Positions 1 through 29,034 of a stretch of 64,000 bases of DNA are shown here, one piece after another (positions within the stretch are counted from its first letter, which is position 1; every line of letters starts with the position of its first letter). This DNA is from Candidatus Marinacidobacterium sp. Its GTDB lineage: Bacteria > Acidobacteriota > Vicinamibacteria > Marinacidobacterales > Marinacidobacteraceae. The stretch lies in contig CBDHFO010000010.1 of the NCBI GenBank assembly GCA_965262645.1, positions 418 through 64,417 on the forward strand. The letters are read 5' to 3'. Under the pieces are notes generated by a model that searched no databases, was not told the DNA's origin, and saw only the letters and a program-made list of their open reading frames with translations. Position numbers and translations under genes: made by a program.

Positions 1-584
1 GTGGGCGTCCTGAGACCCCTCAGCGGATTCGGCGCGAGAAGGAACTCGCCCCGCTCGTCTCTGGACTTGGCAGCCCAGTTGAGCACGGCGATCAGAAACT
101 TCAGGTCGTGCTCGATGGTCCGGTTGGACACCGGCCTCCCGCTTGGTCCGACCTTGCCCGACCGCCGCGCCCGGATGAACCGGTCCCAGTCGCGCTGGGA
201 AAGTGTCTCGGGACTGCGGCCCCTTCCGAAGAACCGGACGAACATCCGCGTCGCCGCCCGGTCGGACCGTTGAGATGTCTCCGCCTTGGTGGGCGTCACC
301 TCTTCACCGTAGATTTCAAACAGCTTCTCCAGGGTGAGCGGCTCGGGCTCGGCTTCCGTCTTGCCGTTCAGGTCCGGGGCGACGAAGCCTGCCGCGAACT
401 CGTCCGCTTGCCGCTTCGCCCTCACCCAATCGCGGTGCCCCAGCGACCGGGTAAGCCTGCGCCCGTTCTCGCGCCACTCAATCTGGTATAGGCCGGTCTT
501 GGCGTCGGGGAACACCCTCACCCGGTTCCGGCCCCATTCGCCGGCGCCGTAGGAGCGCCGACTTCGTTTCGTGCGTGCCATCAT
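1..584 (-). CDS. Tyrosine recombinase/integrase (element A), 5' part; runs off the left edge
   Basis: The minus strand from 584 reads MMARTKRSRRSYGAGEWGRNRVRVFPD..., close paralogue of the complete integrase at 5490-6656. Confidence 0.9.
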   Translation of the reverse strand, partial: MMARTKRSRRSYGAGEWGRNRVRVFPDAKTGLYQIEWRENGRRLTRSLGHRDWVRAKRQADEFAAGFVAPDLNGKTEAEPEPLTLEKLFEIYGEEVTPTKAETSQRSDRAATRMFVRFFGRGRSPETLSQRDWDRFIRARRSGKVGPSGRPVSNRTIEHDLKFLIAVLNWAAKSRDERGEFLLAPNPLRGLRTP

Positions 585-1105: not shown

Positions 1106-1202
1106 GCTGGCTTGAGCCACGCTACGGTGGCTAAGCCAGCTTACCCTTTGTGGGTACAAAGGGGCTGACGAGGGGTGGCGTCCGCCCCCCTTCGATCCCC
1201 CC
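1106..1202 (-). other. oriT-like site (ColE1/MOB-HEN type)
   Basis: Inverted repeat GCTGGCTT...AAGCCAGC. Minus strand GTAAGCTGG^CTTAG matches the ColE1 nic CTGG^CTTA. Homologous to other copies in the window. Confidence 0.7.
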
Positions 1203-1431
1203 GGAATGCGCGCGCTCCGTCGGAGGTCGCGGGCGTGGTTCGCGCCCCTCGTGTCGGCAAGTCCTGATGGCCATCAGCCATCGCCGCCTCGAACCGACTC
1301 GCTCCGCGAGCGTGCCCTCCCTTTGGACCGGGTCTGGACGGAGGCCGCTTTCTGCGGATATCTTCACGTCCTGCTCGGCAGCGAAACAAGGCGCTGCCGA
1401 GATCCCAGCCCCCCTTCCCTGAAACCCCTCC

Positions 1432-2236: not shown

Positions 2237-2449
2237 GACCCGGTTGGTAGCTCAGCTCGGCCGCCGGTGCGGGTCTGTTTGTGTCATCCGGCGCCTTTTG
2301 CCGTTCCTTGGCCCATGAGTGTCTTCGGGTGGTTGACGCTACCGGCCCGCTGATCTGCGGAGGAAACCGAGTCCGAGCCCGACGAGGACGGGGGTTTGGG
2401 GCGGGCGGTGCACCTCGCCGCCCGCCGCTCCGGCAGCGGGGCGAAAAAG

Positions 2450-2820: not shown

Positions 2821-2822
2821 GC

Positions 2823-3986
2823 CTATCGCTGCGTGACGTACTCGCTCCACGCCTGCATGACCTCGGCGCGGCGCTCCAGCAGGTCGGAGCGCTGATACGC
2901 CTGAACGACCTGGCTGCGCGGGACGTGGGCGAGGCAGGCTTCGGCGACCTCGGCAGGGACGCCCGACTCGGCCATCCACGACCGCGCGCTCGACCGGAAC
3001 CCGTGAACCGTCGAGGCGACTCCGGCGCGGCGAAGCACGCGCCCCGGCGCGTTCCTCGGCAACACCCCGCCGGTCCTCGACGGAAACACCAGCGACGATT
3101 CGGGAGACAGCGCCCGCGCCCGCTCAAGCACCTCCAGCGCGCCCGTGCTCAACGGAACGGAGAACTCGCGCCCGGCCTTCATCCTCGACGCCGGGATCGT
3201 CCACACGCCCGCCCCCAAGTCGATCTCGTCCCAGCGCGCCCCGCGCGCCTCTCCGGCCCGCACCGCCGTCAACGCGATCATCTCGACGCACAGCGCCGCC
3301 GAGGGATGTATGTACCTGACCCGGCGGATCGCCCCGAGCGCCGCCGCGACCTCCCGGTGCGGAAGCGCGCGGTAATGCCTCGGCGCGTTGCCGTTCGCCC
3401 TCGGCAGCGCCACGACCGCCCGGTCCACCGGGTTGTCCGGGCGGAGGTTGTTCCCAATGCACCAGCGGAAGACGGCGGAGATCCGGTTCCGGGCCTTCCG
3501 GCCGGCGGCGGGCTTCGAGTTCCAGATCGGCGCGAGGCACCCCAGCACGTCCGCGCTCGTGATCCGGTCCACCGGCTTGTCAAGCAGGGGCGCGGCGTGG
3601 AGGCGGAACGTGGACTCCCATTGCTCGGCCATCGTGCTCCCGGCCTTCCAGCCGTCGCGGTGCAGCTCGATGGTGCGTTCGGCGGCCTCGGCGAACGTCG
3701 GGACGCCGCGCCCGCGCGGGTCCCCGCCGTGGCGGACCGCCCGGCTGTTGTCCAGCGCCTTCCGGCGCGCCTCGGCGAGCGTGATCTCGGGATACGGCCC
3801 GAGCCCGACCGAGGTCAGCCGCCCCTCGATCCGAAGGCGCTGGCGCCACGTCCTGCTGATGCGGCCGGTTTTCGTCCGGTGCACCCGGAGGCTCAGTCCT
3901 CGCCCGCCTCGCCCGTCGCCGTAGACGCCGGGACGGTTGACCGTGCGCACGAAGGCGGCGGTGAGCGTCCTGGGTCGCTTCGTCAT
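2823..3986 (-). CDS. P4-like tyrosine integrase with N-terminal arm-binding domain
   Basis: N-terminal arm domain (GLSLRV...GLGPYPEITLAEAR); catalytic R (AVRAGE), K (RMKAG), HGFR, LAH, QAY. Confidence 0.93.
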   Translation of the reverse strand: MTKRPRTLTAAFVRTVNRPGVYGDGRGGRGLSLRVHRTKTGRISRTWRQRLRIEGRLTSVGLGPYPEITLAEARRKALDNSRAVRHGGDPRGRGVPTFAEAAERTIELHRDGWKAGSTMAEQWESTFRLHAAPLLDKPVDRITSADVLGCLAPIWNSKPAAGRKARNRISAVFRWCIGNNLRPDNPVDRAVVALPRANGNAPRHYRALPHREVAAALGAIRRVRYIHPSAALCVEMIALTAVRAGEARGARWDEIDLGAGVWTIPASRMKAGREFSVPLSTGALEVLERARALSPESSLVFPSRTGGVLPRNAPGRVLRRAGVASTVHGFRSSARSWMAESGVPAEVAEACLAHVPRSQVVQAYQRSDLLERRAEVMQAWSEYVTQR

Positions 3987-4354
3987 GGGTTCCTTCCCTG
4001 AGGTTGTATCACTTATTGCAACACTACACACGGAAGAATACACCGGATGGCGGCAGACCGCAAGGGACGTGGAGATTACCGTAAATGCCGATAAACCAAC
4101 GTACTACAGGATGTTACTGGACTACTGGAGGACGGCTATGGATCGTGTTGGAAGATGGCAAGGCAGTTCGTGATGGACTGCACGATCTGCGCGACGGAAA
4201 CTTCGCGGAGAGAAGCCGTATCCGCCAGAAGGAAGGGATCGGAGCGCGTGGTATCCTCCCCGAAATGGAGGCGGAGACGAGCTGTCTGGCAGCCGATCCG
4301 GAGCGTCACGATCATCGAGTGTGAAGCGGTGACTTGAAGGCGGTTTTCGACGCA

Positions 4355-4870
4355 CCCGATGCCGATCCAGAGGCGCACATGTGACATCGGAGTCGATGTG
4401 CAGGAAAACGCGTTTCGGACGTGCACGGCACCGGTTCCGCAAGTTGCGGAACGGCTTGGGGTTGTGCCACGGCCATCGGAGCGGCGAGGCCGAGCGGGAC
4501 CTCAAGGCCGTGGACGGGAGTGACCCCCCATCTCGGCATGCCTCGATCGGCATCGGGGAGGATGGCGATGTGCATCCCCATCTTCCCCTACGCTGCGGGG
4601 TCACTCCCATCCAGCAGTCCCGTGCGGGAAGGCCACGGCGAGCCGTGACGGGGGCTCGTCCCGGTCTTGCTGGGCGATGCCGAACAGCCCGACGGCCACG
4701 CGGTCGGCCAACGGGTCCTCCTCCGCCTAGAAGCCGCGCTCGACACCCTTCCGGGACGGATCGCTGGTTCGGGAGCGACCCCTGGTCGGCAGGGGCGAGG
4801 GTGTGAAAACACGCTCGGCGCTATGCCGCACCGAGCCCTCGGCGAGGGGGGTCGCTCCCGCCACGGCCGG
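4355..4870. repeat. Conserved structured non-coding block, copy A
   Basis: 4355-4670 aligns with 7932-8250 and 4750-4865 with 10300-10410; nested inverted repeats GGGAG(T/C)GACCC...GGGTC(A/G)CTCCC. Confidence 0.7.
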
Positions 4871-5354
4871 TGCGGCCGGTCCGGCAACCGACGGGCGGGC
4901 CGCATGGCCGCAGGACGTTGCGGGCGCGGCGGATACGCGCCCGCCGCCATGTGAATCGCCGGAGCGCAGAATCGTGAAACGACCCCCCGTGTCGTTTTCA
5001 CGCTCCAGTGCGGCCCAAGTCGGAGCGGTCGGGCACCGTCCAACCCGCCTCCGGCGAATGCACCCATTGTCCGCGGCACCCGCGTTCCGCCCACACTCCG
5101 TGGGGTGCCGGACTGACCGGCCTCCAAGACGAAAACAGCGCTTCGTGGCTCGGACGGCGGGCAAGCCCGAAGTGTCTCCACGGTTGGTCGGGCCAACCGG
5201 CCCACACGATTCGCGGCAAGCACTACTGCGTCGATGGCGATGGAGTTTCAACGGCCTCCAGGCGGTCGAAGTGACCGCCGACGGCGCCTTGGACCCCGCT
5301 GCCGAGAACCGCCCGCAGGGTGTCGTCGGCGACCGCTTCGAGGGGCGTCCCCAA

Positions 5355-5397
5355 GGCTGGCTCCTGACCCGGTATTGGCCGGGAGCCAGCCTACCCC
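5355..5397 (-). other. Left half of an oriT split by element B (attL)
   Basis: IR GGCTGGCTCC...GGAGCCAGCC followed by TACCCC, where homology to intact oriT copies stops. It resumes at 14582. Confidence 0.75.
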
Positions 5398-5489
5398 ACA
5401 AATGCTATGAAGTCTGCATCTTACTGTAGAGTTTGGAGTTACAGGCTTGGCGGTCCTGATTCCCGCCGATTGGTTACCGCCGATTCGGA

Positions 5490-6656
5490 TCAGGCCCGAC
5501 CGTTGCGGCGGCGGTTGTCCAGAGCCTTCCTGAGTTGTACCGCGTCGGGTTGCTGATAGCAGCGCAGCACCGTCTGAGCCTTCTTCCAGCCGCCAAGCTC
5601 GCAAAGCACCTTGAGCGGCAGGTCCATGAGATCGGAAGCGAACTTGCGACGGAGCGAGTGCCAGCCCCGTCCCCGCCTCGGCTCCAGTCCCGCGAGGGTC
5701 TCCGCCTTCTTCCACCACTTGTGGGCGGCAACGCGGCTCATGCAAAGCGTGGCATCCCTCGGCGACGGCAGCACCGGGCCACTCGTGGTTCCTTCGCTCC
5801 TGCTTCGTGCCTCTTCCAAGGCGGCGACCGCCTCGGCGGTAAGGGGTGTTACGTGCTCGTAGCCGGTCTTCTCGTGCTCCGCGCGCCACCGGACCTCGCG
5901 GCCCTCGATGTCGATGTCATCCCAACGGAGCTCGCGGATGGCACCGATCCGGTGCCCGGTCTCGTGCGCGAGCACGAGCGCGACATGGAACCGCCAGCCG
6001 ACCTGCCGGGAAACCCCGAGCAGCGCCTGGTATTCGTCCTCGGTGAGGACGACCCGGTTGGGATTCTTCTCCTTGGGCTTTCTGAGGCCCTTGAGCGGGT
6101 TGGAGTCGAGGAGCAGCCGTCCGTGTTCGTCCCTTGACCTTGCGGCCCAGTTGAGCACCGTCATCAGGAACGTCAGGTCCCATTCGATCGTCCGGTTGCC
6201 TACGGGCTTGCCCGAGCGTCCGGCCCTGCCCGCGCGCCGTTCCCGGATGAACCGATCCCAGTCGCGCTGCGACAGTGTTTCGGGTCTTCGGTCCCGTCCG
6301 AAGAAGCGGAGGAACATCCTGGTCGCGACCCGGTCGCGCTGGCGCGTCCGTCTCCCCTTCGTGGGCGTCACCTCTTCGCCGTAGATGTCAAAAAGCGATC
6401 CCAGCCTGAGCGGCTCGGGCTCGGCTTCGGCCTCGCCGTTCAGGCCCGGCCCCGCGAAGCCCGCGGCGAACTCGTCCGCTTGCCGCTTCGCGCGCGACCA
6501 GTCGCGGTGTTTGAGGGACCGGGTGAGCCTGCGCCCGTTCTCTCGCCACTCGATCTGGAAAATGCCGGTCTTGGCATCCGGAAACACCCGGACCCGGTTC
6601 CGGCCCCATTCGCCAGCGCCGTAGGAGCGCCGACTTCGTTTCGTGCGTGCCATCAT
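5490..6656 (-). CDS. Tyrosine recombinase/integrase (element B)
   Basis: R (GHRIGAI), K (HEKTG), HSLR, GGW, catalytic Y (RCYQ). The start MMARTKR is inferred from the paralogue at 584. Confidence 0.93.
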   Translation of the reverse strand: MMARTKRSRRSYGAGEWGRNRVRVFPDAKTGIFQIEWRENGRRLTRSLKHRDWSRAKRQADEFAAGFAGPGLNGEAEAEPEPLRLGSLFDIYGEEVTPTKGRRTRQRDRVATRMFLRFFGRDRRPETLSQRDWDRFIRERRAGRAGRSGKPVGNRTIEWDLTFLMTVLNWAARSRDEHGRLLLDSNPLKGLRKPKEKNPNRVVLTEDEYQALLGVSRQVGWRFHVALVLAHETGHRIGAIRELRWDDIDIEGREVRWRAEHEKTGYEHVTPLTAEAVAALEEARSRSEGTTSGPVLPSPRDATLCMSRVAAHKWWKKAETLAGLEPRRGRGWHSLRRKFASDLMDLPLKVLCELGGWKKAQTVLRCYQQPDAVQLRKALDNRRRNGRA

Positions 6657-6979
6657 TCGATTCCTCTCTTGATGGACTGCACGATCTGCGCGAAGGAATC
6701 TCGCTGGACGAAGGCGGCTTGACCAGTGCGATACCCGCGCTGTTGGCTTCTCGAAAGCGATGGAGGAGCGCTGCCGGAAGCCGGTCCGCGTCCGGGACGG
6801 CACCGGACGGCTCGGGACTATGGCCCGCATACGCGACTTGACGCCGCCGAAAGCCCTCTTCCGATTCTGTCGGCAGTGACAACCTCCACGGTTCTCGGTC
6901 CCGACCACGGAACCAGGGTGCGCCCGTGGGAATTGGGAACCCTCATGTACTGCAAAGCCCTCGACCAACGGCGGCCTTG

Positions 6980-7915
6980 GTGATCGACCATCTACAGGGG
7001 CGCGAGAAGGCGCTGGAGCCGTTCGGCTTGACGGGCCGCCGCGCCGAGTGGATCGCCTTGGCGAGCCTGCACGGAGGCGTGTTCACCCGCAAGCAGTTCT
7101 CTGCGTGGCTCGGGGTCAGCCGCTTCACGGCGCTCCGGTTCGTGCAGGGCCTGAGGGACCGAAGGCTGGCCGCCGAGGAGATGGTCGGAGACCTGAAGGT
7201 CTGCCGGATCTGCGCGCGCGGCATCTACCGCGCACTGGGTGCCGAAGGCGTGCGCCACCGGAGGATCACCTCGCCCGAGGTGGCCATGCGCCGCCTGCTC
7301 TCGTTCGACTACGTGATCGAGCACACCGGCCTGCCCTGGCTGCCCACCGAGCCGGAGAAGGTCGCCGCGTTCGAGGTGCTCGGCATCGGCCGCTCGCTTC
7401 TGCCCGTCCGGGTCTACCGGGGCGCGGCTAGCGGCGCGCGGCGGTACTTCCCCCGCGGGATGCCCGTGGCGCTGGACTCCCGCCGCGCCGTGTTCGTGCA
7501 CGCCGATCCCGGCTACGATACCTCGACCGCGCTCCGCTCGTGGCGGGATCGGCACCATGGGCTATGGGAAGCGCTGAGGGAGCAGAGCCTGTCGGTCGAG
7601 GTCGCCGGGGTCGCAGGCGGCCGGAGGGAACTCGAACGCGCACGGACGATCCTGGGAAACTGGGTCGGCGCCGCTACCGCCCAAGAACCCAACCAGCAAC
7701 CCAAGACCATCGCAGCCGTCCGGCGCGAGATTGCGCGCGTCGAGAATGCCATCCGGGGAATGGACGACGCGGCGGTCAAGGAATTGGGCGGTCTCAACGG
7801 CTGCCTTCACCGCCTCGTTGAGATGAGGGCTCTGCTCCGATCGGCCCTCCCCGGAGGAATGATCCACGGCTATTCGGTATGGGTTTCGAGCCGCTTCTCC
7901 GGGGGCGGGATTTGA
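6980..7915 (+). CDS. Conserved hypothetical protein with N-terminal winged-helix-like region; possible replication/regulatory protein of the element
   Basis: Divergent from the integrase. Motifs H(G/S)GxFTxxQ, IYRxLG.E..RHRR, RLLxxDYV, LPTE.EK, RYF recall an ICE-associated hypothetical family (recalled, not searched). Confidence 0.7.
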   Translation: MIDHLQGREKALEPFGLTGRRAEWIALASLHGGVFTRKQFSAWLGVSRFTALRFVQGLRDRRLAAEEMVGDLKVCRICARGIYRALGAEGVRHRRITSPEVAMRRLLSFDYVIEHTGLPWLPTEPEKVAAFEVLGIGRSLLPVRVYRGAASGARRYFPRGMPVALDSRRAVFVHADPGYDTSTALRSWRDRHHGLWEALREQSLSVEVAGVAGGRRELERARTILGNWVGAATAQEPNQQPKTIAAVRREIARVENAIRGMDDAAVKELGGLNGCLHRLVEMRALLRSALPGGMIHGYSVWVSSRFSGGGI

Positions 7916-7931
7916 CCGCCCATGGGCGGGT

Positions 7932-8250
7932 GCCGTTGCCGATCCAGAGGTGTCCGTCAGACATCGGGGTCGTTGTGCACGAGAACCGCGTCCGGACGGG
8001 ACACACCGCCGATGCCGCAAGTTGCTGGCGTACTTTCGTTTGTGCCGAAGCCGCCGGGGCGGCCGTGACGCGCGGGCGCTTGCGGCCGTGGACAAGCGAC
8101 CCACCTGTTCGGCATGCCTCATACGGCACGGCGACGGCTGGGATGTGCACTGCCATCCCACCCGCCCGTGGGGTCGCTCCCGGTCCATCAATCCCGTGCG
8201 GGAAGGCCAATCGGTGTGCCGGGACGGGCACGTCCCGATTTGTCGGCCCC
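7932..8250. repeat. Conserved structured non-coding block, copy B
   Basis: Aligns with 4355-4670, e.g. GCCGATCCAGAGG, GACATCGG, CCGCAAGTTGC, TCGGCATGCCTC, TCCCGTGCGGGAAGGCCA. Confidence 0.7.
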
Positions 8251-8312
8251 GGCCGTGGCTCACGTCCGGTGTGGCCCGGCAATTCGTCGTTGCGCCCGCC
8301 TCGCGACTCCAT

Positions 8313-10010
8313 CTACGAGGTCCGGTTCCGCTGGTGCAGGCCGACGAATCCGACGATGACGCGTTCGTTCTGCTCGTCCCAGGCGAAGGCGATCCGGATC
8401 GTGTGGTGCGGGTCGTGACTGGTCCCCTTGCCGAGGTGGGCCGCCAGCTCCCATGCCGTTCCGTTGACGCGGGTCCGGTACCAGTCCCGGAACCGTCCCA
8501 TCGTGGCGGCGGACGTTTTCGACTTGTAGAACCAGCCCGGACAGGTTTCCCCGATTCGATCGGTCGGGCCGTTCCGGTATGCCGTGGCGAGCCACGCCAG
8601 CGCGTCGAGCACCTCCGGGGGGTTCACGAACGGCGTGTCCTCGTTCGAGCGGGAGTTGAGCTTGATGAGCAGCCTGTCGGGGAACATCTCACGTGCTTGG
8701 GCGATGGCCTCGCGAACGCTCCCCACGGGCTCTGCGGCCACCGGCTCTCCGTCGTGCACCCGGGCCTTCCTGCGTTCTTCGATGTAGGCGCGCCTCCAGT
8801 GCTCCTCCATCCTCCGGCTGCGCAACGCCTCGTCCCGGATCCGCCCGGCCTCGTCGTCTCTCTGCGTCTTCTCCGCCCGGAGTGCCCGGTTGTCCTCTTC
8901 GAGGCGCTCGCGCTCGCACCGTAGGCCCTCCACTTCGAGCAGGACGGATTTGTCCTCGTTCACGGTCGATCCCGAGGCGGGTTCGGTCGCCGCATCGGCA
9001 CCGTCCGCCGCCCCGGGCGCCGGGCGCGCCTCCACGGCGTCAGCCTCATTCCCGGAGGCGTCCTCGTCCGGCGGGTCGGGCTGGGCAACGCGCTCCCGCC
9101 ACGCATCGACCGCCGCGAGAATGGCGTCCTCGCACTCGCGGCGCTGTACGGACCGCTCGAGCTCCTCGGCGCGCGAGGAGGCTTGGGGACGAATCGGCCC
9201 GTACGCCTCGAAGCTGACTTCCAGGTAGATGAGGAACGGGAGTGCCGAGTCGGTCAGCGCGGGCCGGTCCTCGACCAGTCCCGGCCAGGGATCCGGGTCG
9301 ATCCCGAGGTAGCGGAGTTCCTCGCCGAACCGCTCGCGAAGGGAGCGGCAAAGGCCCACGATTTGCTCCCGGCACCAGCCGAGGAGTTCGCGCTCCTTCG
9401 CGTGCCGGATGTCCTCCATCCACTGGATGAGGGTGTCGGCTTCCTCCCACTCGGGCGCGCTGGGCGGGAGATCCCCCAGGAAGTCGAGCCAATCCTGGAA
9501 GAGCGGGGACACAAGCGGCGGTGGTGCGGGAAAGCGCCGGGCGAGAAGGCACAGCATCAGCCCGGCGGACTCGCGGTCCACCGCGTCGTCGACCGCCGCC
9601 AGTGCCTCGCGCTCGCTCCGCCATTCCTCGCGCGTCCAGAAGGAATCGAATCGCGCGTCGGGTGGCTCGGGCACGGGCATGCCCCGGCTTGCAAGGCGCG
9701 CGGCGGTCCGGTCGCGAAGCGCGTCGTGCGAGTCCACCCAAGCATTGAGAACGGCGCGGGCGAGGTCCTGATCGTGGTGCTGGATCGCCTCCATTACGGG
9801 CTGGAGGAGCTTGGGTCGGGGCGCGCGGCTCGCGTCCCGGTATCCGTCCACCCGAAGACGCCGCAGTGCAGCCCCGCGTTGTCGGCGAAGCGCCTTGCAC
9901 TCGGAACGGTGCTTGAGGGCGCGCCGCACCACACGGCGGCGGAAGTCCTCGCTGAAAAGGGGGAAGAGCTCGCCGGGAGTTCTCGGTTGAGTCGTAGGCT
10001 CGGTAGTCAC
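8313..10010 (-). CDS. Coiled-coil protein with C-terminal RelE-like candidate nuclease domain
   Basis: 565 aa, GTG start with AAGGAG RBS; C-terminus HLGKGTSHDPHHTIRIAFAWD...VIVGFVGLH. Confidence 0.7.
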   Translation of the reverse strand: MTTEPTTQPRTPGELFPLFSEDFRRRVVRRALKHRSECKALRRQRGAALRRLRVDGYRDASRAPRPKLLQPVMEAIQHHDQDLARAVLNAWVDSHDALRDRTAARLASRGMPVPEPPDARFDSFWTREEWRSEREALAAVDDAVDRESAGLMLCLLARRFPAPPPLVSPLFQDWLDFLGDLPPSAPEWEEADTLIQWMEDIRHAKERELLGWCREQIVGLCRSLRERFGEELRYLGIDPDPWPGLVEDRPALTDSALPFLIYLEVSFEAYGPIRPQASSRAEELERSVQRRECEDAILAAVDAWRERVAQPDPPDEDASGNEADAVEARPAPGAADGADAATEPASGSTVNEDKSVLLEVEGLRCERERLEEDNRALRAEKTQRDDEAGRIRDEALRSRRMEEHWRRAYIEERRKARVHDGEPVAAEPVGSVREAIAQAREMFPDRLLIKLNSRSNEDTPFVNPPEVLDALAWLATAYRNGPTDRIGETCPGWFYKSKTSAATMGRFRDWYRTRVNGTAWELAAHLGKGTSHDPHHTIRIAFAWDEQNERVIVGFVGLHQRNRTS

Positions 10011-10619
10011 TGGGGGCAGCTCCTTGCCAGGAATGAGTCTCTCGCCCTCCACCCGGAGGGAGAGGTGCGCCAACGGAGGGAGGCGGCGGTCTCCGCCGCT
10101 CCCCATGTCCGACCAAGATTCGGCGCATTTCACGCTCCTCGGCAAGATCGGCCCCGCGAGCCGAGCCGGCCCACCCACCCGATGGCGCGGTGCAGCAAGG
10201 GCGGAACGGTGGCGCCGTTCACGGGCTGGAGGTCACCGGCAGTGGCCTTCAAACCATCCGCGCGGCCGCCATCCGCGGGTCTCGGGCCGCCTTCCCGAGC
10301 AGGGATCGCTGGTCTGGGAGCGACCCGAGAGGGCGGGGCCGGGGGTGCGCAAACGCGCCCGGCCCCGAACCCGTAGCAGGCCCTCGGACTGCCGGGTCGC
10401 TCCCAGCCCCGTCCGACTGAGCCCCGCGGCCCCGGCCGCCTTGGGACAGCGAGGTGCAAAGCCTTCGCGCACAGCAGCTTCCGCCGCCCCGCCGGTGCGC
10501 ACGTCCGGGGCGCCAGGGTGCGCATCGGTACCCCTTGTCGATTTCGCGGGCGTATACGGCCATGACCCACGGCGCCAGAGGTGCGCAAATCATTGGTGGA
10601 GGACTCCCGCGAGGCGAAC

Positions 10620-10854
10620 CGTCCGCCATGTGTCGGCGCGTTGCATCAGCTCCGGCTGGTCGGCGAGCCCGGAGCGCCCTCTCTCGATGACGACCAGGTG
10701 GGCGACGACCTCGACCGCCTCGGCAGCCGCCTTGTGGCCGCCGGCGCACCAGATCCGACAGCGTCAAGCCCGCCGAGCGCGCCTTGGCGTGCCACTCGGC
10801 ACGCTCCGCGTCGCTCACGCGGACCTTCACCCACACGGCGCGTCCAGGGCTCAT
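10620..10854 (-). pseudogene. mobC: mobC (RHH relaxosome accessory) remnant with internal deletion
   Basis: VWVKVRVSDAERAEWHAKARSAGLTLSDLVRR, then in another frame AAEAVEVVAHLVVIER; next to an oriT. Confidence 0.75.
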
Positions 10855-10869
10855 GACGCGCCGTTGGCG

Positions 10870-11270
10870 AAGTAGGGGTCTGAGGGGGCACAGCCCCCCG
10901 CCAGCCTCCGCAGGGGACGCACGGAGTGTGGCCCCAAGGAGTATGCTGGCTCTACCGCCTTAGGGTGCCAGAGCCAGCCCTGCGGACGGCCTCCGGCACG
11001 CCTCTCCGGGGACCGGCCCGGACAGCAGCCTCCGGGCCGTCGCGGGCAAGTTCCCCGGCCTCTTGGTCGCCAGCCTCACAGACGGCGAGGGCGACGGTTG
11101 CCCCGTCACTCCTCGGCGACGGCGGCGCTCTCTCCCGCGCCGCCGCGGTTCCGCCCCTACCCGTACCCCTCGGAGACCCAAGATCGTCGATCCTGGGCGA
11201 TCATTCGGCCCGTAGGTTACCCGAATAGCCCCCAGCACGCCCGAAAACGGCCTCTGAGCCCGTCACGCCC
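10870..11270 (+). other. oriT module of element B
   Basis: CGGAGTGTG...GTATGCTGG^CTCTA resembles ColE1 GGAGTGTATACTGG^CTTA; IR GCTGGCTCT...AGAGCCAGC; tail includes AGATCGTCGATCCTGGGCGATC (11181-11202). Confidence 0.72.
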
Positions 11271-11570
11271 GGTGGGACGGCATCGAGGCGACCACCACCC
11301 TGCGAGTGTGGTCGTCCCAGAAGTAGTAGATGCGTCAGGCACCGCCTCGGGTCCCGGGTGTTCGTGCCGTTCTTGATGTGCCAGTCCACCGTGTGACGGC
11401 GGCCGTTCCAAGTGCAATCGAAGGAGTCGCCTCCACACGGGAGATTGGAGACGCCCTCGCCAATGTCGCCGATCCGCCCGTGGAGATCGGAAACCCCACC
11501 CCGCAAGCGTCCATCCCGGTACTCGCGTCCTAGCCAACTCAGGCACCTAGCCAACTCAGGCACCGCGCCG
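11270..11570 (-). pseudogene. Fragment of the same C-terminal domain family as 8313-10010
   Basis: LSWLGREYR...WHIKNGTNTRDPRRCL, frameshift, IYYFWD...VVVASMPSH. Confidence 0.6.
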
Positions 11571-11839
11571 CCAAGCCCACGATCTGAAACTCGGCGCTGT
11601 TCAGCTCTCGCCGCGCCGATCCCGTAAGCGAGATCCGGCCCGCGAGATTCTGGTCGCACCACGGAGCACCCCGAGCTTGACGGCGCCGGACGGCATGGAC
11701 CCGAAGCCGCAAGACGCTGCCTCGTCAGCGGTTGGATGTCGAGCGACATGTGAATCGCTGGAGCGCTAAGGCGTGAATCGGACCCCCAGTTTGTTTCACA
11801 ACGCAGTACGGGCGTGACGCGGCGCCTTCATGGCATCCT

Positions 11840-12200
11840 GGAGGCTCGACCTCCCGGCCCGCCACTGTCACCCGGCGCTGGTCGTAGCGGACGCGGACCT
11901 CGCCGAGCGCGACGCCCTCGGACTGGGCCTGATGCCGGAGCGCCGCGCGGACCCTCGCCACAAGCTCGGTCGGCGAGACCGGCTTGACCATGTAGTCGGC
12001 CGCACCAAGCTCCCGTAGGTCAGCCGTCGGCCAGTTGGCCGCATCGAGCGCCTGGCCGTCGGCCGCCGGGAGCGTGAAGGTGAAGCGCGCCGAGGCCCGG
12101 CCTTCAGCTCTCGGCGCGAATGCGGCCGTCGAGCAACTGGACGAGTCCCTTCAAGATCGCCAGGCCAAGCCCCGCGCGCCACCCACCCCTCGGGTCGGCG
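11840..12200 (-). pseudogene. Histidine kinase C-terminal and response-regulator fragments
   Basis: GLGLAILKGLVQLLDGRI...RFTFTLP and GAADYMVKPVSPTELVARVRAALR. Confidence 0.65.
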
Positions 12201-12336
12201 CGCTCGCGGAAAAAGGTGCGGGCGCTGGTCGGGGGTGTTGGGGGCGGAGGAGGGACCGAACCACTTCTGACCGGTGTATCTTGGTGTTAGCTGTGGAACG
12301 TCCAGCGGACACGGCCCACTCACAAGGAGGAGAGCA

Positions 12337-12834
12337 ATGAAGAGGCTTATCATCTTCACCATGCTGTTGGCGGCGTGCGAGCCCGCGACCGTCTCAGACG
12401 CAGTGCCGAATGTGGACCCCGAAGCCGAAGCGACGGCAATGGCGATCGAACATGCAATCGCGATCCGCAACCTTCGGGCCGAAGCCCCGCTCGTGGCCGT
12501 GGTTACCACCGATCCATCCCTGACGAACGCTCTGAAGCGCCGTGGGCTGGTGGTGCGAACCGAGTCCGCCGAGACGTGCGAGCCCGGCGAAGTCGTCGAG
12601 ATGGATGACGGTCCCGTCCAGCTATCGCGGTGCATCATGATCGAGGGCCTGATAGAGCTTTCCGCATCGGTCGAGGCCCGCGGCGATGACGGCTGGTGGG
12701 TCAAGGTGGTCGAGCGGACTTCCGTCGGCGGTGTGGACAGTTATTCACACTGGAGCACCTACGCCCTTCTCGTTGAACGGCGCGATGGCGAGTTTGACGC
12801 GACGCTTGATCCGAACTGGGGCACCGAGACGTGA
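12337..12834 (+). CDS. Hypothetical lipoprotein
   Basis: AAGGAGG RBS; MKRLIIFTMLLAA-C lipobox. Confidence 0.8.
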   Translation: MKRLIIFTMLLAACEPATVSDAVPNVDPEAEATAMAIEHAIAIRNLRAEAPLVAVVTTDPSLTNALKRRGLVVRTESAETCEPGEVVEMDDGPVQLSRCIMIEGLIELSASVEARGDDGWWVKVVERTSVGGVDSYSHWSTYALLVERRDGEFDATLDPNWGTET

Positions 12835-13313
12835 GGGCCGCAATGGTGATCTTTGCGTTGCTGGGGGTTCCCTTCAGCGCGCCGGCGCCGGTGCCCGTAC
12901 CCCAGGACGTGTGTAGCGGATTCCGGGAGGTGACCCTGAGCTCCTGCGCATCCATGAGCCACGACAGATGGCTGGTCTACACGGCGTACTGGCGAATGGG
13001 TAGCAGCTACTGCAGAACTGAGAAATCGAAGTTCGACGACGCCTGGTCAAACGACCGATGGGTGATCTTTGGGGACGGGACGAAGTGGGATCCGGAAACC
13101 GGGCGCGTCAAGAGGATCGGGGGGTTCCACGAGCGGAGCAGTCACAGATCGGGGGTGACCAAGTTCACCTCGGACGACAAACAGATGCAACTCGCCATCC
13201 ACGAATCGCTCCATCACAGGTACAGGGCGTGGAACGAATTCCGGGTGAAGCGCGAGATCAAGAAGCTGATGGACCGGCTCTGCATCCCCCGGGGCCAGGT
13301 CATCAGTTTCTGA
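12831..13313 (+). CDS. Secreted protein with HExxH zinc-metallopeptidase-like motif
   Basis: Signal peptide; AIHESLHH; 4-bp overlap with the upstream gene. Confidence 0.65.
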   Translation: MRAAMVIFALLGVPFSAPAPVPVPQDVCSGFREVTLSSCASMSHDRWLVYTAYWRMGSSYCRTEKSKFDDAWSNDRWVIFGDGTKWDPETGRVKRIGGFHERSSHRSGVTKFTSDDKQMQLAIHESLHHRYRAWNEFRVKREIKKLMDRLCIPRGQVISF

Positions 13314-13761
13314 GCTTCGGTTGCTCGCGCGGGGCAGGCTTTCCGGCCCCCGGCGGATGGAAAGCCGCCGGGGGTCGTGCTTCAGGGGGGGATGGTTGCT
13401 GGTTGGCTGTCAGGCAACCGGGTCCCCTTCGTCCGTCGGCACCACCCAGCGCCAGCTTGCCTCGGGATCGCGCGTGACCTCGTTCTTCTCCTCGAGGCGC
13501 GCCAGGAGCGCCGACACCGAGGTGGCGAAGTTTCTGCGAGTCGGTTTGGACGCCGCCGGCGATCAGGGCTTCGGCGATGTCCCTGGGCCAGTGATGGCCC
13601 CGGGTTGTCCTTCAGGAACATCAGGAGCGCCTCACGGTGGTTCATGCCCTCGTACTGCCGGTCATCGGCCGCTTGGGAGGCCTCAGCGGCCGCAGGAGCC
13701 ACGTCGATGACAACGGTGGTCCGCCGGGAGGCTTATCTCCCGGGCGGACGGGCCGGAACCC

Positions 13762-13965
13762 TCAGTTCACCCCAGGGCGGCAAGTAGCAGATGTACTCGT
13801 ACTCATCCCGTCGCACACCACGTCGAGGAAGCAGAACCATCCGTCCCCCTGGATGCGTTCGCCATATGTGCAGTCGGATCCCCTGCAGGCCGCCGACGCC
13901 GGCGTGGTTGTCCCGCCAAGCATGACGACGAGCAGGGCGATCGCTACGGTGAGCAACTTCTTCAT
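13762..13965 (-). CDS. Small secreted Cys-rich peptide
   Basis: AGGAGG RBS; MKKLLTVAIALLVV...ASA signal; mature part Cx4C...WxCFx4CDx9C. Confidence 0.75.
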   Translation of the reverse strand: MKKLLTVAIALLVVMLGGTTTPASAACRGSDCTYGERIQGDGWFCFLDVVCDGMSTSTSATCRPGVN

Positions 13966-14419
13966 GATGTCCTCCTGTGAGTGTTGGCCCGCCCGCCGGG
14001 CGCTCCCGTGACTAGAAGATCGGGAGGAACAGGTCCGCCGGGTGGTTGAGTGTCCCGAACGGACGCGCCAAGAATCGGGTTGGGGGCCACGGGCCACTCC
14101 CGGGATACTGACCACGGCGGTTAGTCGTGCGGTGGCTCCGGTGGGTGGGGAACGGCTCCTTGGAGATCCGCGGCTGACCATCCAGTCCGGGCCACAGCTA
14201 CAGGATGCGGTCCCACGCCGAGCTCTCCAAGGCGATCCATGCGACCGCCGCCCGATCTGACGCTGGACGCGCGGCGCGACGATTCATCGCCGGGCCGCAG
14301 AACCTGGACAGCTCGTTTTAGCGCATCCCTGACCGGGTATGGGGTCGGCGGCGGAACGGGCGTACTGGGCTCGGCCTAGTCCTTGGAGGAGCTACCCGGG
14401 CGGCCTCTAACGGCATCGA

Positions 14420-14581
14420 CCTGATCGGTCCGTATTCCCGCCGTTTAGTCCTGCATTCCGGCTATTTCAGGACGGCGAAATCAGATAATTCTCCAACGGC
14501 AAGTGCGGCAGATCGTGCAGCCCTGATTGAACTTACGTGATTTCTTGCCGTGATTTGGGCCTTTAGTGTTCCGCCTACCCC
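14420..14581. promoter_or_regulatory. Right end (attR) of element B
   Basis: Arm-like GCGGGAA/GCCGGAA repeats, CTGCACGATCTG box and core GCCTACCCC. Inverted homologue at 32920-33075. Confidence 0.65.
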
Positions 14582-14890
14582 GTGTATAACACAGGGGCTG
14601 CCGAGGGGCGGCCCTGCCCCCCTTCGATCCCCCCGAGAATCGCGCTCCCGCGGACTGCGCGGGAAGCGTACTCGCCGCCCTTCCATCTTTGCGGCGCGGC
14701 CTGTTGCCCAGCGCCGCAACGTCAAGGTCACTGCGCGCGTCACATGGGCCGAGCTCTCCGACTGGCGGACCATGGCCGCCAGCCGACGGCGTTCCGCTCT
14801 CGGCGCTGATACGCCGGGCCATGGCGCGCACGAGGACCTGGACTGCCCCCGGCGGACGAGGTTGAGCCCCGAGCGCGACCGGCAATCATT
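14582..14890 (+). pseudogene. mobC: Right half of the split oriT plus frameshifted mobC
   Basis: GTGTATAACACAGGGGCTGCCGAGGGG...CCCCCCTTCGATCCCCC parallels 1148-1202; then RNVKVTARVTWAELSDWR, frameshift, GVPLSALIRRAMARTRTWTAP. Confidence 0.7.
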
Positions 14891-15152
14891 CCTATCTGGG
14901 CGGCTTCCGGTACCTTTCCTCGATCGCCAACGCGCAGACCTGAGGCCCGCCAGAAGGGGAGCGCCAAGAAGGTGATGCGCGATCCGCCGCGCTCATCGCC
15001 TAAGCACTTGGTCCAGTTGTTGCCTCCACCAGGACCGGCAGCCTGCGCGGAAAGTACAGGCGGCGGCTTCTCAGCCGCCCGGTAGTTCCGATGGCTACGA
15101 TGCCTGACTGACGTTTCGCGTGGACCGAGGTTGCGACTGCCGAAGCAGCCAA

Positions 15153-16427
15153 TCAGCGGTTCGGACAACGCGCGTGCCTGGGGTAGAACCAGCACCGGGC
15201 ACCCGCGCTAACCAGCATGTCTCCGATGGCAGACAACGTCGACACCCATTCCTGACGGCCCTCACGCTCCGGCGGCTGATTGCGCCAAAGGTCATAGGTG
15301 CTCAACACCTCCTGTAGGACCGAGCCCAGGGCCATCCTTGCGTTAACATCCGCGCCCGCTTCGATCAGCATGCGCGCGAGCGGAATCGCATTAGCTGGAT
15401 CCGAAGCAGGCCTATCCCCGTAGGGGGGGGAATGGACGGTTGCCGACAAGACCGGCACACCGAGTGGCGCATAGCTTACGTCCGCTCCAGCGCCAATCAG
15501 GATCTCGGCCATACGAATGTCGTCCTCGATCACCGCCGCTCTGAGAGGTGACCGGCCATCCCTTCGATCGGTTGTTGCGTTTACATCCGCGCCAGCCTCG
15601 ATCAGCAGCTCCACTATCTCCACATTTGATGCTTCCACCGCATGAAGGAGCGGCGTGGCCCGATGTTCATACGAGTCGCCGTCGGACACAGTCGTGGTTA
15701 CTCGATCACGGGCATTCACGTCCGCACCAGCCTCGATCAGGATCTCCGCTACCTCCGTATGCCCTCGGCCAGCCGCCCAGTGAAGCGCCACATAGCCACC
15801 ATAGCCACTCGGGGCGGGAGCATTCACATCCGCGCCTGCCGCGATCAGGGTCTCGACTAGTTCCGTACTCCCAGCCTCAGCGGCCCAGTGCAACGCGACA
15901 ATTCCGCTCTCGTTTGGCGCGTTCACGTCAGACCCCGTCTCCAAGCAAATCTTCACAACTTCAATGTCGGCGGACACGACAAGACCGGGCCATCCCCCGT
16001 CACACCCCGCTTCCCGACGCGATTCCGCATCCGCTGCCATCCGTTCGACTCGATTGAGAATCTGGAGGGCCGCTGTATAGTGCTCGCCCTCCCGACCCGT
16101 GACTTCCAAATAGCGTACGGCCGAAGTCTCCGCTCTGGCATGAAGTCCGGCTCCCAACGCCGCTTGGGCGTCCCGGAACCAGAAAGTGTGCGGAATCTCC
16201 AAATTGGATTCCTCGCCCAGGGTACGAACTGATTCCAACGCTGCAATGGCCGCGTGGTAGTCGCCACTGGCGATGTGCTCTTCGGCTTGGAGCAGGTACC
16301 GGTCCATCTGGATGGCAGGCGGCAGGTCTTGAGCGAAGGCCGGGGCCGGATCGTTGACCACCGCGAGGAGCCCGACCAGAATCAAGAAGGGAACCGAGGG
16401 TGCGCGTGCGAAGCTCGTCGTCATCAT
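15153..16427 (-). CDS. Secreted ankyrin-repeat protein with N-terminal TPR-like helices
   Basis: Signal peptide AFA-Q; about six repeats of type ALHWAA...LIxAGADVNA. Confidence 0.9.
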   Translation of the reverse strand: MMTTSFARAPSVPFLILVGLLAVVNDPAPAFAQDLPPAIQMDRYLLQAEEHIASGDYHAAIAALESVRTLGEESNLEIPHTFWFRDAQAALGAGLHARAETSAVRYLEVTGREGEHYTAALQILNRVERMAADAESRREAGCDGGWPGLVVSADIEVVKICLETGSDVNAPNESGIVALHWAAEAGSTELVETLIAAGADVNAPAPSGYGGYVALHWAAGRGHTEVAEILIEAGADVNARDRVTTTVSDGDSYEHRATPLLHAVEASNVEIVELLIEAGADVNATTDRRDGRSPLRAAVIEDDIRMAEILIGAGADVSYAPLGVPVLSATVHSPPYGDRPASDPANAIPLARMLIEAGADVNARMALGSVLQEVLSTYDLWRNQPPEREGRQEWVSTLSAIGDMLVSAGARCWFYPRHARCPNR

Positions 16428-16608
16428 TGGAGTACCGTTCCTTGAGATTGGGCAGCCACGACCGCTGACCGGGCAACATATCAACCTGCCTTATTCAGGG
16501 ACATGACCACTGGCAAGAGTCTAACAGGGTCGGCAAGCGTTCGGAAACTTCAGACCGTGCTACATGCGAAAGCGAAGGAAGAACCCGGACGGCGATTTCA
16601 CGCCCTAG

Positions 16609-18210: not shown

Positions 18211-18214
18211 CTAG

Positions 18215-19718: not shown

Positions 19719-19722
19719 CTAG

Positions 19723-21110: not shown

Positions 21111-21129
21111 CGTGATTCCCAACGCTCAT

Positions 21130-28252: not shown

Positions 28253-28540
28253 ACGATCTCGGGTCCCCGAGGGGTAGAGGCAGGGCGGAACGCGACCGCG
28301 CGCAGAAGCGCCGGGATCCGCGCCCTCGCCGCCAATGAGACTGGCGACCGCGGTGCCGAGGAGCTGCTCGCGACGCCCCGGTGGGCACTGTTGCGGGCGG
28401 TGCCCGGAGCGATTCTCGGCGTCACCACCGGGCTGGCTTGAGCCACGCTAACATGGCTAAGCCAGCCTACCCCCCGTGGCCACACTTCGCGCGTCCCTGG
28501 AGGGGCTGACGAGGGGCTCCGCCCCCTCGACCCCCAAAGG
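28253..28540 (-). other. oriT module; its tail continues at ~26845-26919 beyond the IS1111
   Basis: GTAGGCTGG^CTTAG on the minus strand; IR GGCTGGCTT...AAGCCAGCC at 28431-28467. Confidence 0.72.
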
Positions 28541-29034
28541 TCCCGCGCCGAGGCGCGCAGGATCGCAGGCGACGGGTTTCAACTGGCCGTAACCCAACCG
28601 AAAGCGCGCCAGCGACATGGAACGGCCGGGGCCGTGTCCGGCCGAACGGCGATTTCGTGTCCGGCGACCCCCAAACTGCCGCTCAATGGTCAGTGCTTGG
28701 GACATGGCCCCACCCCAATTCGGTGCTGAGCGGCGTGGCCCTGCTCGCGCACCTGCTCAGTCCGACTGACCTTCCGCCCCGTGACGCTGGCATTCCGACC
28801 GCAAGAATGGGGGTAGGACACGCCGGGACTCCTGGATGGGTCCCATACAGCCGGGTGGTAAGGTGCTGTTGGACTCCATGTTACCGGCCATGCAAAATTG
28901 CACAGAAGTGGCCGTCGAAAATGTCAGATGTGGGCAGGGTGACGGAGCGATGGCAGCGATGCGGGGTCCGGGTGTCGATGAGGGTTCCCGGCGGGTTCCA
29001 TACGATGGCGTCTCCACCGAACGGAGGAGACGCG

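What the first reader, a model, noticed from the sequence alone, without database searches (positions are those of the whole stretch)
5355..14640. Tyrosine-integrase element that integrates into the oriT of a related element
Seen: GCCTACCCC is duplicated at 5389-5397 and 14573-14581. Joining the outer flanks gives AGCCAGCCTACCCC-GTGTATAACACAGGGGCTGCCGAGGGG...CCCCCCTTCGATCCCCC. This reconstitutes an oriT like the intact copy at 1106-1202, followed by mobC. The core abuts the ColE1-type nic. Established: IMEs that integrate into ICE oriTs are known in streptococci. Inference: this integrase family (paralogues at 1-584 and 5490-6656) targets MOB-HEN oriTs. The insertion disables the resident oriT and adds a new one (10870), allowing nested accretion.
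Basis: partly seen in the sequence, partly recalled or inferred. Interest (0 to 1): 0.85.

Follow-up and report, generated by a model that had tools for sequence, protein, structure and literature searches.

The report
Integrase element inserted in transfer origin
A 9.2-kb mobile element with its own integrase has inserted into the likely transfer origin of another mobilizable element in a sponge-associated Gemmatimonadota genome, a habit so far described in streptococci and staphylococci.

Summary
GCCTACCCC stands at 5389-5397 and 14573-14581. The joined outer flanks match, end to end, a profile of 24 intact copies of a ~100-nt hairpin-rich motif (57 bits; 0 of 200 control joins hit).

The motif lies directly upstream of mobC plus relaxase at three chromosomal loci and in a related genome, so it is oriT-like. 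A frameshifted mobC follows the right half.

The 9,184-bp insert carries a tyrosine integrase beside attL, conserved arms, an internal second oriT-like copy with a mobC fragment, and no relaxase.

Two other genomes hold complete elements (8.0 and 8.9 kb) splitting the same motif at the same position. Three to four further loci show the left junction alone. An uninterrupted paralogue of the target exists on another contig.

Only the closest integrase clades use this site. Other clades sit in mobC, relaxase and integrase genes, in tRNAs or elsewhere. The relaxase is distantly MbeA-like but not HEN-type. The nic site is unknown. The part shared with small Mob plasmids stays intact at attR, so loss of oriT function is not shown. 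No excision junction was seen in reads.

This is a new variant of a known kind (the IME_oriT elements of Firmicutes).

The parts
5356..5390 (+). Hairpin 1 of the target oriT-like motif (left half, retained at attL)
   Evidence: Pattern match. Profile positions 1-42 at 5356-5397. Hairpin 1 has a different inner stem in 24 of 24 intact copies yet still folds.
5389..5397 (+). attL copy of the 9-bp direct repeat GCCTACCCC (crossover segment)
5398..5489 (-). Integrase-proximal arm of the element (P arm) with repeated AATCGGCGG-type motifs
   Evidence: Conserved in the downstream flanks of homologous integrases up to the core, after which the flanks diverge (read by eye).
5490..6653 (-). Tyrosine integrase int1 (387 aa)
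   Evidence: PF00589 E 3.2e-20. 2746 relatives at E<=1e-20 among 8000 scored; the named ones are mostly Gemmatimonadota or Palauibacter.
6926..7915 (+). orf329, unknown function, weak winged-helix hint
   Evidence: Below Pfam cut-offs. No NCBIfam hit. Atlas neighbours are unnamed. Homologues lie in C17 about 2.6 kb upstream of T4CP-like ORFs.
7933..8237 (+). Conserved apparently non-coding module (copy of 4356-4663)
   Evidence: 72% identity. No Rfam match.
8313..10178 (-). orf621, unknown function (cargo)
   Evidence: High GC3 frame. No Pfam or NCBIfam family. Unique in this genome.
10747..10854 (-). N-terminal fragment of a mobC gene, downstream of the internal oriT-like copy
   Evidence: tblastn 61% over residues 1-36, E 6e-7
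10873..10978 (-). Internal intact oriT-like copy carried by the element
   Evidence: Profile positions 1-95, 48.3 bits
10941..11267 (-). About 300-nt module that precedes hairpin 1 in several copies (homologous to 2508-2811 and 28249-28470)
12337..13313 (+). Two small cargo ORFs (a 165-aa ORF whose N-terminus I read by eye as a lipoprotein-like signal; orf160)
   Evidence: ORFs and GC3. No Pfam family.
14426..14572 (+). Integrase-distal arm (P' arm) with repeated ATCACG-type motifs
   Evidence: Homologous to 32944-33070, to C11:3080-3170 and to the attR arms of L033 and L042.
14573..14581 (+). attR copy of the 9-bp direct repeat
14582..14643 (+). Right half of the target oriT-like motif (hairpin 2, CTGCCGAGGGG box, hairpin 3, C-run)
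   Evidence: Profile positions 34-105 at 14573-14643, 39.1 bits
14703..14856 (+). Frameshifted, truncated mobC pseudogene of the target element
   Evidence: tblastn E 1.3e-7 and a second frame. The intact counterpart in G017:C33 is 73% identical in DNA.
28432..28544 (+). Intact, unoccupied oriT-like copy that holds the same 9-mer
1106..1210 (+). Intact oriT-like copy A
   Evidence: 74.1 bits
2442..2544 (-). Intact oriT-like copy B, downstream of the P4-type integrase int2 (2823-3986)
   Evidence: 65.5 bits. Pfam Arm-DNA-bind_3, Phage_int_M and Phage_integrase.
3..584 (-). int1', a paralogue of the integrase, cut by the contig end

Best explanation
Window 5398-14581 is a 9,184-bp integrative element (counting one repeat copy).

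How it most likely works:
- Its tyrosine integrase (5490-6653) recombined an attP site with a 9-bp identity segment, GCCTACCCC. That segment lies at the junction between the large hairpin 1 and hairpin 2 of a ~100-nt oriT-like motif.
- The motif belongs to a mobC-relaxase mobilization module of integrative mobilizable elements in this Gemmatimonadota lineage.
- Integration leaves hairpin 1 plus the core at attL. It leaves the core plus hairpin 2, the conserved CTGNC-AGGGG box, hairpin 3 and mobC at attR.
- The element has no relaxase. It carries a second intact oriT-like copy with a mobC fragment, so any transfer would depend on relaxases supplied in trans or on riding with its host element.

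Shown here: the split, its recurrence in other genomes, the position of the motif upstream of mobC-relaxase, and an uninterrupted paralogue of the target.

Inferred: that the motif is a working oriT, that the integrase is the agent, that the element can still excise, and what the insertion does to the host's transfer.
For: - Repeat and flank reconstitution.
- The integrase lies 93 nt from attL and has an intact PF00589 domain.
- The arms are conserved among homologues up to the core and diverge after it.
- Complete elements in other genomes are flanked by the two halves of the same motif. L033 is 8,007 bp with a 9-bp repeat. L042 is 8,939 bp with an 8-10-bp repeat. Their joined flanks score 62.8 and 67.6 bits.
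- The left junction alone appears in L032 and L097, and more weakly in L133 and L167 (E 0.006-0.009).
- The core variant matches the oriT variant in each clade.
- The motif lies directly upstream of mobC plus relaxase at C17:1723932, 2054938 and 2274038 and in G017:C33.
- An uninterrupted paralogue of the target with a homologous left flank (86% and 75%) lies on C11.
- A mobC pseudogene follows attR.
- Contigs of public runs bridge attL (5000-5547) and attR (14526-15000) without differences. These runs may be the source sample.
Against: - No read or contig shows the empty site or a circle junction. Power was low: contigs drop rare forms and raw-read depth was about 0-5.
- An intact copy with the identical 9-mer at 28465 is unoccupied.
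- In the L042 clade only 1 of 6 genome copies, and none of about 7 metagenome copies read by eye, lies in the motif.
- Four loci (L026, L029, L030, L035) share the core and the hairpin base but then have a different upstream sequence. Their right ends were not found.
- oriT function rests on position and architecture only. No similar sequence was found in 72,556 plasmid records.
- The target's own mobC is broken and no relaxase follows it, so the host module is a relic.
Confidence: 0.8

Rival explanations
1. The insertion is real and integrase-mediated, but the target motif is not an origin of transfer. It would be another conserved backbone feature of these elements, for example the mobC promoter or operator, or a protein-binding hairpin. 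It would be used simply because it is conserved and multi-copy.
For: - No nicking data exist.
- Hairpin 1 and the core are absent from the small Mob plasmids of the same genome. These share only the right-hand part: an inverted repeat, the CTsGCC.rGGGG box and a C-run (the profile gives no hit on plasmid contigs).
- No annotated plasmid resembles the motif.
Against: - The motif sits immediately upstream of mobC-relaxase at 3 chromosomal loci and in G017.
- Conserved inverted repeats with variable, still complementary inner stems (24 of 24 distinct) are what I recall of Mob-type oriTs.
- From recall, oriT and mob promoters commonly overlap, so the two readings do not exclude each other.
Confidence: 0.13
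2. A transposon-like insertion that made a 9-bp target-site duplication, not site-specific recombination.
For: From recall, 9-bp duplications are typical of several transposon families. The window is full of insertion sequences.
Against: - I noted no transposase gene inside the element (Pfam on 6 of its ORFs) and no terminal inverted repeats in the repeat scan of 1-20000.
- An integrase with conserved arms lies at one end.
- The same repeat sequence is found with related integrases in independent genomes. L097 shares the window's. L032 and L033 share theirs.
Confidence: 0.03
3. Relaxase-mediated recombination between two oriT copies (cointegrate formation) produced the arrangement.
For: From recall, relaxases of several families can recombine oriT copies. 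The genome holds 21 profile hits and 41 relaxase-domain matches.
Against: That route would leave a whole hybrid oriT at each junction. Here each junction joins half a motif to an AT-richer arm that is conserved among integrase elements.
Confidence: 0.02
4. Assembly artefact in a repeat-rich contig: the flanks and the insert are not truly contiguous.
For: Small contigs of this assembly are head-to-tail repeats. The window contig is rich in repeats. Logan contigs break near 14526-14535.
Against: Contigs of other runs bridge both junctions exactly (records 9, 16, 17, 24). The same architecture occurs in two other assemblies.
Confidence: 0.02

Closest known systems
IME_oriT elements of streptococci and Staphylococcus aureus (Libante et al. 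2020, PMC7563843; abstract and sections 13 and 20 read, plus passages found with 'tyrosine' and 'direct repeat')
   Same: - Small integrative elements bounded by direct repeats.
- They insert into the oriT, in a stem-loop upstream of the relaxase gene, of another integrated mobile element.
- Some copies sit at other sites, as here.
- Nesting inside another IME is reported.
   Different: - The phylum differs (Gemmatimonadota against Firmicutes).
- The target relaxase is a PF03432, distantly MbeA-like protein with a MobC partner, not MobT/Rep_trans.
- The window's element has no relaxase of its own, whereas IME_oriTs encode a Rep_trans relaxase.
- Excision and transfer were shown by experiment there, and not here.
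- Supplementary tables of that paper could not be seen.
IMEs that insert into conserved genes of ICEs of the Tn5252 superfamily (mentioned in PMC7563843, section 20)
   Same: Integrases aimed at conserved backbone genes of other transferable elements. Sister clades here split mobC, relaxase and integrase genes in the same way.
   Different: Different hosts, targets and integrases. Known to me only from that passage.
ColE1 MbeA / MbeC mobilization system (MOB-HEN)
   Same: A MobC-type accessory gene is followed by the relaxase, with the presumed oriT just upstream. MbeA is the best NCBIfam match of the relaxase over its whole length (E 1.7e-30).
   Different: The score is 107 bits against a cut-off of 500. 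Motif III keeps the histidine pair (HVHV) that MbeA lacks according to PMC3447787 (passage read). No DNA similarity to plasmid records was found.
Genomic islands with P4-type integrases
   Same: The window's second integrase (2823-3986) has the Arm-DNA-bind_3, Phage_int_M and Phage_integrase domains. It heads int-module-oriT-mobC-relaxase units in this genome.
   Different: That integrase is not the one that made this insertion. The finding's integrase has no recognised arm-binding domain.

Membership tests
Tyrosine recombinase / phage integrase (PF00589) | Catalytic domain recognised above the curated cut-off | tested here: met
   73 bits against a cut-off of 27.1, E 3.2e-20, residues 202-370
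Tyrosine recombinase / phage integrase (PF00589) | Catalytic Arg, His-x-x-Arg, His/Trp and Tyr residues | tested here: inconclusive
   Candidates (HETGHR, WHSLRR, GGW, RCY) were read by eye in the translation. They were not aligned to a reference structure.
Site-specific integrative element | Direct repeats at both ends, integrase next to one end, and outer flanks that rebuild an uninterrupted target | tested here: met
   An uninterrupted paralogue lies on C11.
Site-specific integrative element | Excised circle (attP) and empty site (attB) detectable | tested here: inconclusive
   No such joint in 3 contig sets and one raw-read run at depth about 0-5
Integrative mobilizable element (IME) | Own oriT and, usually, own relaxase | tested here: inconclusive
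   An internal oriT-like copy (48 bits) and a mobC fragment are present. No relaxase is present. Relatives such as L033, L081, L095 and L096 carry mobC and relaxase directly upstream of the integrase.
IME_oriT family of Firmicutes | Rep_trans (MobT-like) relaxase, and a target oriT of a MobT-encoding ICE | tested here: not met
   The element has no relaxase. The target is associated with a PF03432, MbeA-like relaxase. It works like an IME_oriT but is not a member.
oriT of a Mob module | Lies immediately upstream of the accessory and relaxase genes, with conserved inverted repeats | tested here: met
oriT of a Mob module | Nicked by the cognate relaxase; sufficient in cis for mobilization | not testable with these tools
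   Needs bench work
MOB-HEN (ColE1 MbeA) relaxase family | Motif III without the two conserved histidines | tested here: not met
   The relaxase reads ...HREHGDGVHVHVL.... The criterion is taken from PMC3447787 (passage).
MOB-HEN (ColE1 MbeA) relaxase family | Reaches the curated NCBIfam score for MbeA | tested here: not met
   106.6 bits against 500

The most novel reading that the evidence does not exclude
The integrase belongs to a large radiation in sponge-associated Gemmatimonadota. Its clades have each been retargeted to a different conserved motif of the integration and mobilization backbone of related elements:
- the hairpin junction of the oriT;
- the QIARW codons of mobC;
- relaxase genes;
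- the catalytic-tyrosine codons of other integrase genes.

On this reading the elements live mainly inside one another as nested hyperparasites, and hairpin 1 serves as a landing pad that leaves the minimal oriT usable.
Probability: 0.4. Interest if true: 0.75.

Novelty: new variant of a known kind. Interest (0 to 1): 0.58.

Why it matters
Mobile elements that choose the transfer origin of other mobile elements as their home have, in the papers I read, been described and tested only in Firmicutes. Three full-text searches listed no such description for Gemmatimonadota or Palauibacter.

Here the same strategy appears in an unrelated phylum, with a different relaxase type. It sits within an integrase family whose sister clades target other backbone genes of the same elements.

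If the elements are active, this gives a natural series of closely related integrases (74-95% identical) with different, short and definable target sites. That would be useful for studying how integrase specificity evolves, and how nested elements help or hinder each other's transfer in uncultured symbionts.

Tried and rejected
- tRNA target: none in the window.
- Known RNA family: no Rfam match at E<=1 in 1-20000.
- Similar oriT in 72,556 plasmid records: only two chance-level matches (E 1 and 4).
- Solved relaxase relatives: none at E<=1.
- Cargo proteins orf329 and orf621: only unnamed neighbours in the Atlas and no NCBIfam family.
- Reads: no joint from 5397 to 14582 and no back-joint. Four other joints, with 20-24 letters on the short side, look like related copies from the community and were not used.
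- A share of sequence words in marine, coral and sponge metagenome runs was not used to name a habitat.
- Consensus folding of the MAFFT alignment caught only the conserved base of hairpin 1 and hairpin 3. I therefore folded the inner stems one by one.
- My first regular expression for the distal arm had the wrong spacing and found nothing useful. The corrected one found 10 places.
- A loose hairpin expression gave three false positives (L054, L071, L094). I reclassified them by eye. The aragorn parse missed two tRNA flanks that I had read by eye.
- The careful tree did not finish, so the quick tree is what I cite.
- I could not find the ColE1 nic sequence in the passages of two papers.
- The regular expression matched 8 of 16 mobC-upstream regions. 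It was too narrow for the chromosomal copies and two plasmid types, which show the box by eye.


Full report
WHAT IS THERE

The window is bases 418-64417 of a 66-kb contig (C10) in a 4.93-Mb, 17-contig assembly with 65% G+C. Relatives of its proteins that carry a name are mostly called Gemmatimonadota or Candidatus Palauibacter, and come from metagenome bins.

The 9-mer GCCTACCCC stands at 5389-5397 and 14573-14581. It occurs a third time at 28465-28473. As a bare repeat this is only mildly unusual (0.46 expected; 2 of 100 shuffles reach three).

THE MOTIF

The left repeat ends a 35-nt perfect-base hairpin (GCTGGCT...AGCCAGC, 5356-5390). That hairpin occurs five times in the window and nine times in the genome, against none in shuffles. 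Reading the copies side by side shows a ~100-nt motif with these parts, in order:
- hairpin 1;
- a short YTACNC(C) stretch;
- hairpin 2, in a short or a long form;
- an almost invariant CTGNC-AGGGG box;
- a G/C hairpin 3;
- a C-run.

I aligned 24 intact copies from this genome and from other genomes. The inner stem of hairpin 1 differs in all 24, yet keeps a median of 6 further pairs (mean z -2 against shuffles). A profile built from the 24 finds 21 places in the genome: 13 on the large contig, 5 on C10 and 3 on C11.

THE SPLIT

Window 5356-5397 matches profile positions 1-42. Window 14573-14643 matches positions 34-105. The overlap is the repeat. When the outer flanks are joined (inside a script only) they match positions 1-104 at 57 bits, E 5e-17. 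None of 200 control joins at the same spacing gave any hit.

An uninterrupted paralogue of the target exists on contig C11. Its left flank is 86% identical over 263 bases, then 75% identical, and it runs straight through hairpin 1, a core-like stretch and the right half.

The right flank has a 73% identical counterpart in a genome of the same genus (G017:C33). There the motif is whole and is followed by an intact mobC.

WHY THE MOTIF IS ORIT-LIKE

- The genome holds 41 matches to the relaxase domain PF03432 and 40 to MobC.
- At three chromosomal loci the motif lies directly upstream of mobC, which is followed by a 515-residue relaxase.
- That relaxase is 63-70% identical to relaxases in many of the fetched loci.
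- Right of the split copy lies a frameshifted mobC remnant at 14703-14856 (E 1.3e-7). No relaxase follows it.
- The relaxase's best curated family is ColE1 MbeA over its whole length (E 1.7e-30). However, the score is 107 bits against a cut-off of 500, and motif III keeps a histidine pair. MbeA lacks that pair according to a passage of PMC3447787. The module is therefore distantly MbeA-like and not of the HEN type.

THE INSERT

Next to attL lies a 387-residue tyrosine integrase (5490-6653, minus strand; PF00589). Its gene ends 93 nt from the repeat. The rest of the insert holds:
- orf329;
- a conserved, apparently non-coding module;
- orf621;
- a second, intact oriT-like copy (10873-10978, minus strand, 48 bits), followed by the first 36 codons of a mobC;
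- two small ORFs;
- a distal arm.

No relaxase is present.

Three complete elements (window, L033, L042) share only the integrase and the arms; their cargo differs. In several relatives (L033, L081, L095, L096) mobC and relaxase stand directly upstream of the integrase. The family therefore includes true mobilizable elements, and the window's copy looks like a derivative without a relaxase.

DOES THE INTEGRASE FAMILY AIM AT THIS SITE?

I fetched 80 genome loci and 80 metagenome loci. In the genome set, 88 integrase 3' ends were found and 82 had at least 158 nt of flank. The arm after the stop codon is conserved for about 90-100 nt. Then comes a clade-specific core, and then unrelated flanks.

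My classification used blast, the profile and eye. Related bins repeat some loci, so the rows are not independent.

| Flank class | Copies of 82 | Loci |
|---|---|---|
| Canonical hairpin-1 junction | 4 | L032, L033, L042, L097 |
| Core plus hairpin base, then a different upstream sequence | 4 | L026, L029, L030, L035 |
| Inside mobC | 6 | L031, L036, L039, L040, L044, L085 |
| Against a reversed integrase gene | 7 | L054, L061 (two copies), L062, L065, L070, L093 |
| Against a forward integrase gene | 3 | L051, L081, L095 |
| Inside relaxase genes | 3 | L041, L057, L072 |
| At a tRNA (integrases 67% identical to the query) | 2 | L036 (second copy), L069 (second copy) |
| Unclassified | 53 | (not listed) |

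L033 and L042 have both ends in the locus. L033 has a 9-bp repeat around 8,007 bp. L042 has an 8-10-bp repeat around 8,939 bp. Both have oriT halves outside.

In every split copy the break falls right after AGCCAGC-NTACNC(C). The core variant equals the variant of the oriT it sits in.

In the metagenome set, 69 integrase 3' ends were found. The two assessable integrases that are 90% identical to the query (L133, L167) abut hairpin-1-like sequence (weak profile hits, E 0.006-0.009). Others lie in mobC (3), in relaxase genes (4), against integrase genes (about 18 rows, some being the two faces of one junction) or at tRNAs (about 6, at 68-72% identity). These counts are by eye.

On a quick tree (the careful search did not finish) the oriT label needs at least three changes:
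- The window groups with L097 and L026 (support 99).
- L032 groups with L033 (support 96).
- L042 lies in a separate clade (support 99) whose other five members have the same core in unrelated flanks.

SISTER SPECIFICITIES

- In L031, L036 and L039, elements of 4.3-5.0 kb split mobC with a 10-bp repeat. Residues 1-76 or 1-77 lie on one side. Residues 66-72 onward, plus the relaxase, lie on the other.
- In L061 and L046 the distal junction abuts the last codons and the arm of another integrase gene. The proximal junction abuts the rest of that gene.

Together with the window these show a guild of elements that insert into one another's backbone.

WHAT REMAINS OPEN

- Nic site. It is unknown. 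I could not verify the ColE1 nic in the passages I read.
- Effect on the host oriT. The small Mob plasmids of this genome lack hairpin 1. Upstream of mobC they share an inverted repeat followed within 2-3 nt by a CTsGCC-rGGGG box and a C-run (8 of 16 regions by a narrow expression, more by eye). In the chromosomal motif this shared part is hairpin 2 to the C-run, and all of it stays at attR next to mobC. If the nic lies there, the insertion does not destroy a minimal oriT and the element simply sits at its trailing side. If the nic lies at the hairpin-1 base, the insertion separates it from its recognition repeat. 'Disables the resident oriT' is therefore not shown.
- Activity. It is not shown either. 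Four runs gave no empty-site or circle joint, although contigs bridge both junctions exactly. An intact copy with the same 9-mer at 28465 is unoccupied.
- Status of the host module. It is a relic: mobC is broken and there is no relaxase.

SETTING

The window is a graveyard of mobile DNA:
- A second element (608-4167, bounded by a 13-bp repeat at 595-607 and 4168-4180) carries a P4-type integrase and two oriT-like copies. It has inserted 11 nt upstream of the start of the truncated paralogous integrase at 3-584.
- Stretches of 4168-4997 are homologous, in the same order, to pieces of the 9.2-kb element's interior. The target oriT therefore lies beside, or within, a relative of the inserted element.
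- IS110, IS21 and DDE-type transposase genes fill 16-33 kb.

COMPARISON AND VERDICT

The behaviour matches the IME_oriT elements of streptococci and S. aureus. Of those 64 elements, 53 lie in the oriT of MobT-encoding ICEs, in a stem-loop thought to hold the nic. They excise and transfer with their own Rep_trans relaxase (PMC7563843: abstract and sections 13 and 20; supplements not seen).

Here the phylum, the relaxase type, the accessory protein and the motif are all different, and the window's element lacks a relaxase. It works like an IME_oriT but is not a member of that family.

The three full-text searches listed no description of such elements in Gemmatimonadota.

I rate it a new variant of a known kind, of moderate interest. 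The wider retargeting pattern of the integrase family is the more novel lead.

Noticed in passing
window 595-4180: A second nested element of about 3.57 kb is bounded by a 13-bp direct repeat (595-607 and 4168-4180). It carries a P4-type integrase (2823-3986), two facing oriT-like copies, a zinc-finger ORF and a PEGA lipoprotein. It is inserted 11 nt upstream of the start of the truncated integrase at 3-584. The flanks line up with the uninterrupted sequence at 6657-6701.
   Followed up: partly
L031, L036, L039 (also L040, L044, L085, L135, L136, L160): A sister clade of the integrase splits mobC genes at the conserved QIARW codons with a 10-bp repeat. The elements are 4.3-5.0 kb and leave the relaxase on the far side.
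   Followed up: partly
L061, L046, L065, L070, L093, L139, L142 and others: Another clade sits tail to tail against other integrase genes of the same family. The junction falls at the codons around the presumed catalytic tyrosine (CYQ).
   Followed up: partly
window 4356-4663, 7933-8237, 4758-4869, 10303-10415, 4945-4997, 11744-11796: A conserved, apparently non-coding module with strong inverted repeats is shared by the element, by the DNA left of the target, by C11 and by elements in other genomes. It has no Rfam match and its function is unknown.
   Followed up: no
genome contigs C1-C9 and C12-C16: The small contigs are head-to-tail repeats of mobC-relaxase units, with periods of about 4.4 to 27 kb. 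They are either concatemeric small plasmids or an assembly effect.
   Followed up: no
window 32944-33070, and C11:2811-3170: Two further relics of the same element type. One is a distal arm cut off by a DDE transposase element. The other is an internally deleted integrase followed by a distal arm.
   Followed up: partly
whole genome (C17:14343, 3177713, 4489150): No VirB4 (PF03135) or PF02534 coupling protein was found in the 90%-complete genome. Three copies of an 803-aa ORF with a TraG-D_C domain lie about 2.6 kb downstream of homologues of the element's orf329.
   Followed up: partly
window 6336-6669 and 10678-11011: In the metagenome contig sets these two stretches have word depths of 3700-6300 and 575-1050, against about 40-85 for the rest of the element. 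The two stretches are the integrase 5' end and the internal oriT-like copy. Both sequences are therefore highly multi-copy in that community.
   Followed up: no
window 15153-16484 and 16695-32700: An ankyrin-repeat protein sits just right of the target. It is followed by a run of IS110, IS21 and DDE-type transposase genes, several of them broken.
   Followed up: no
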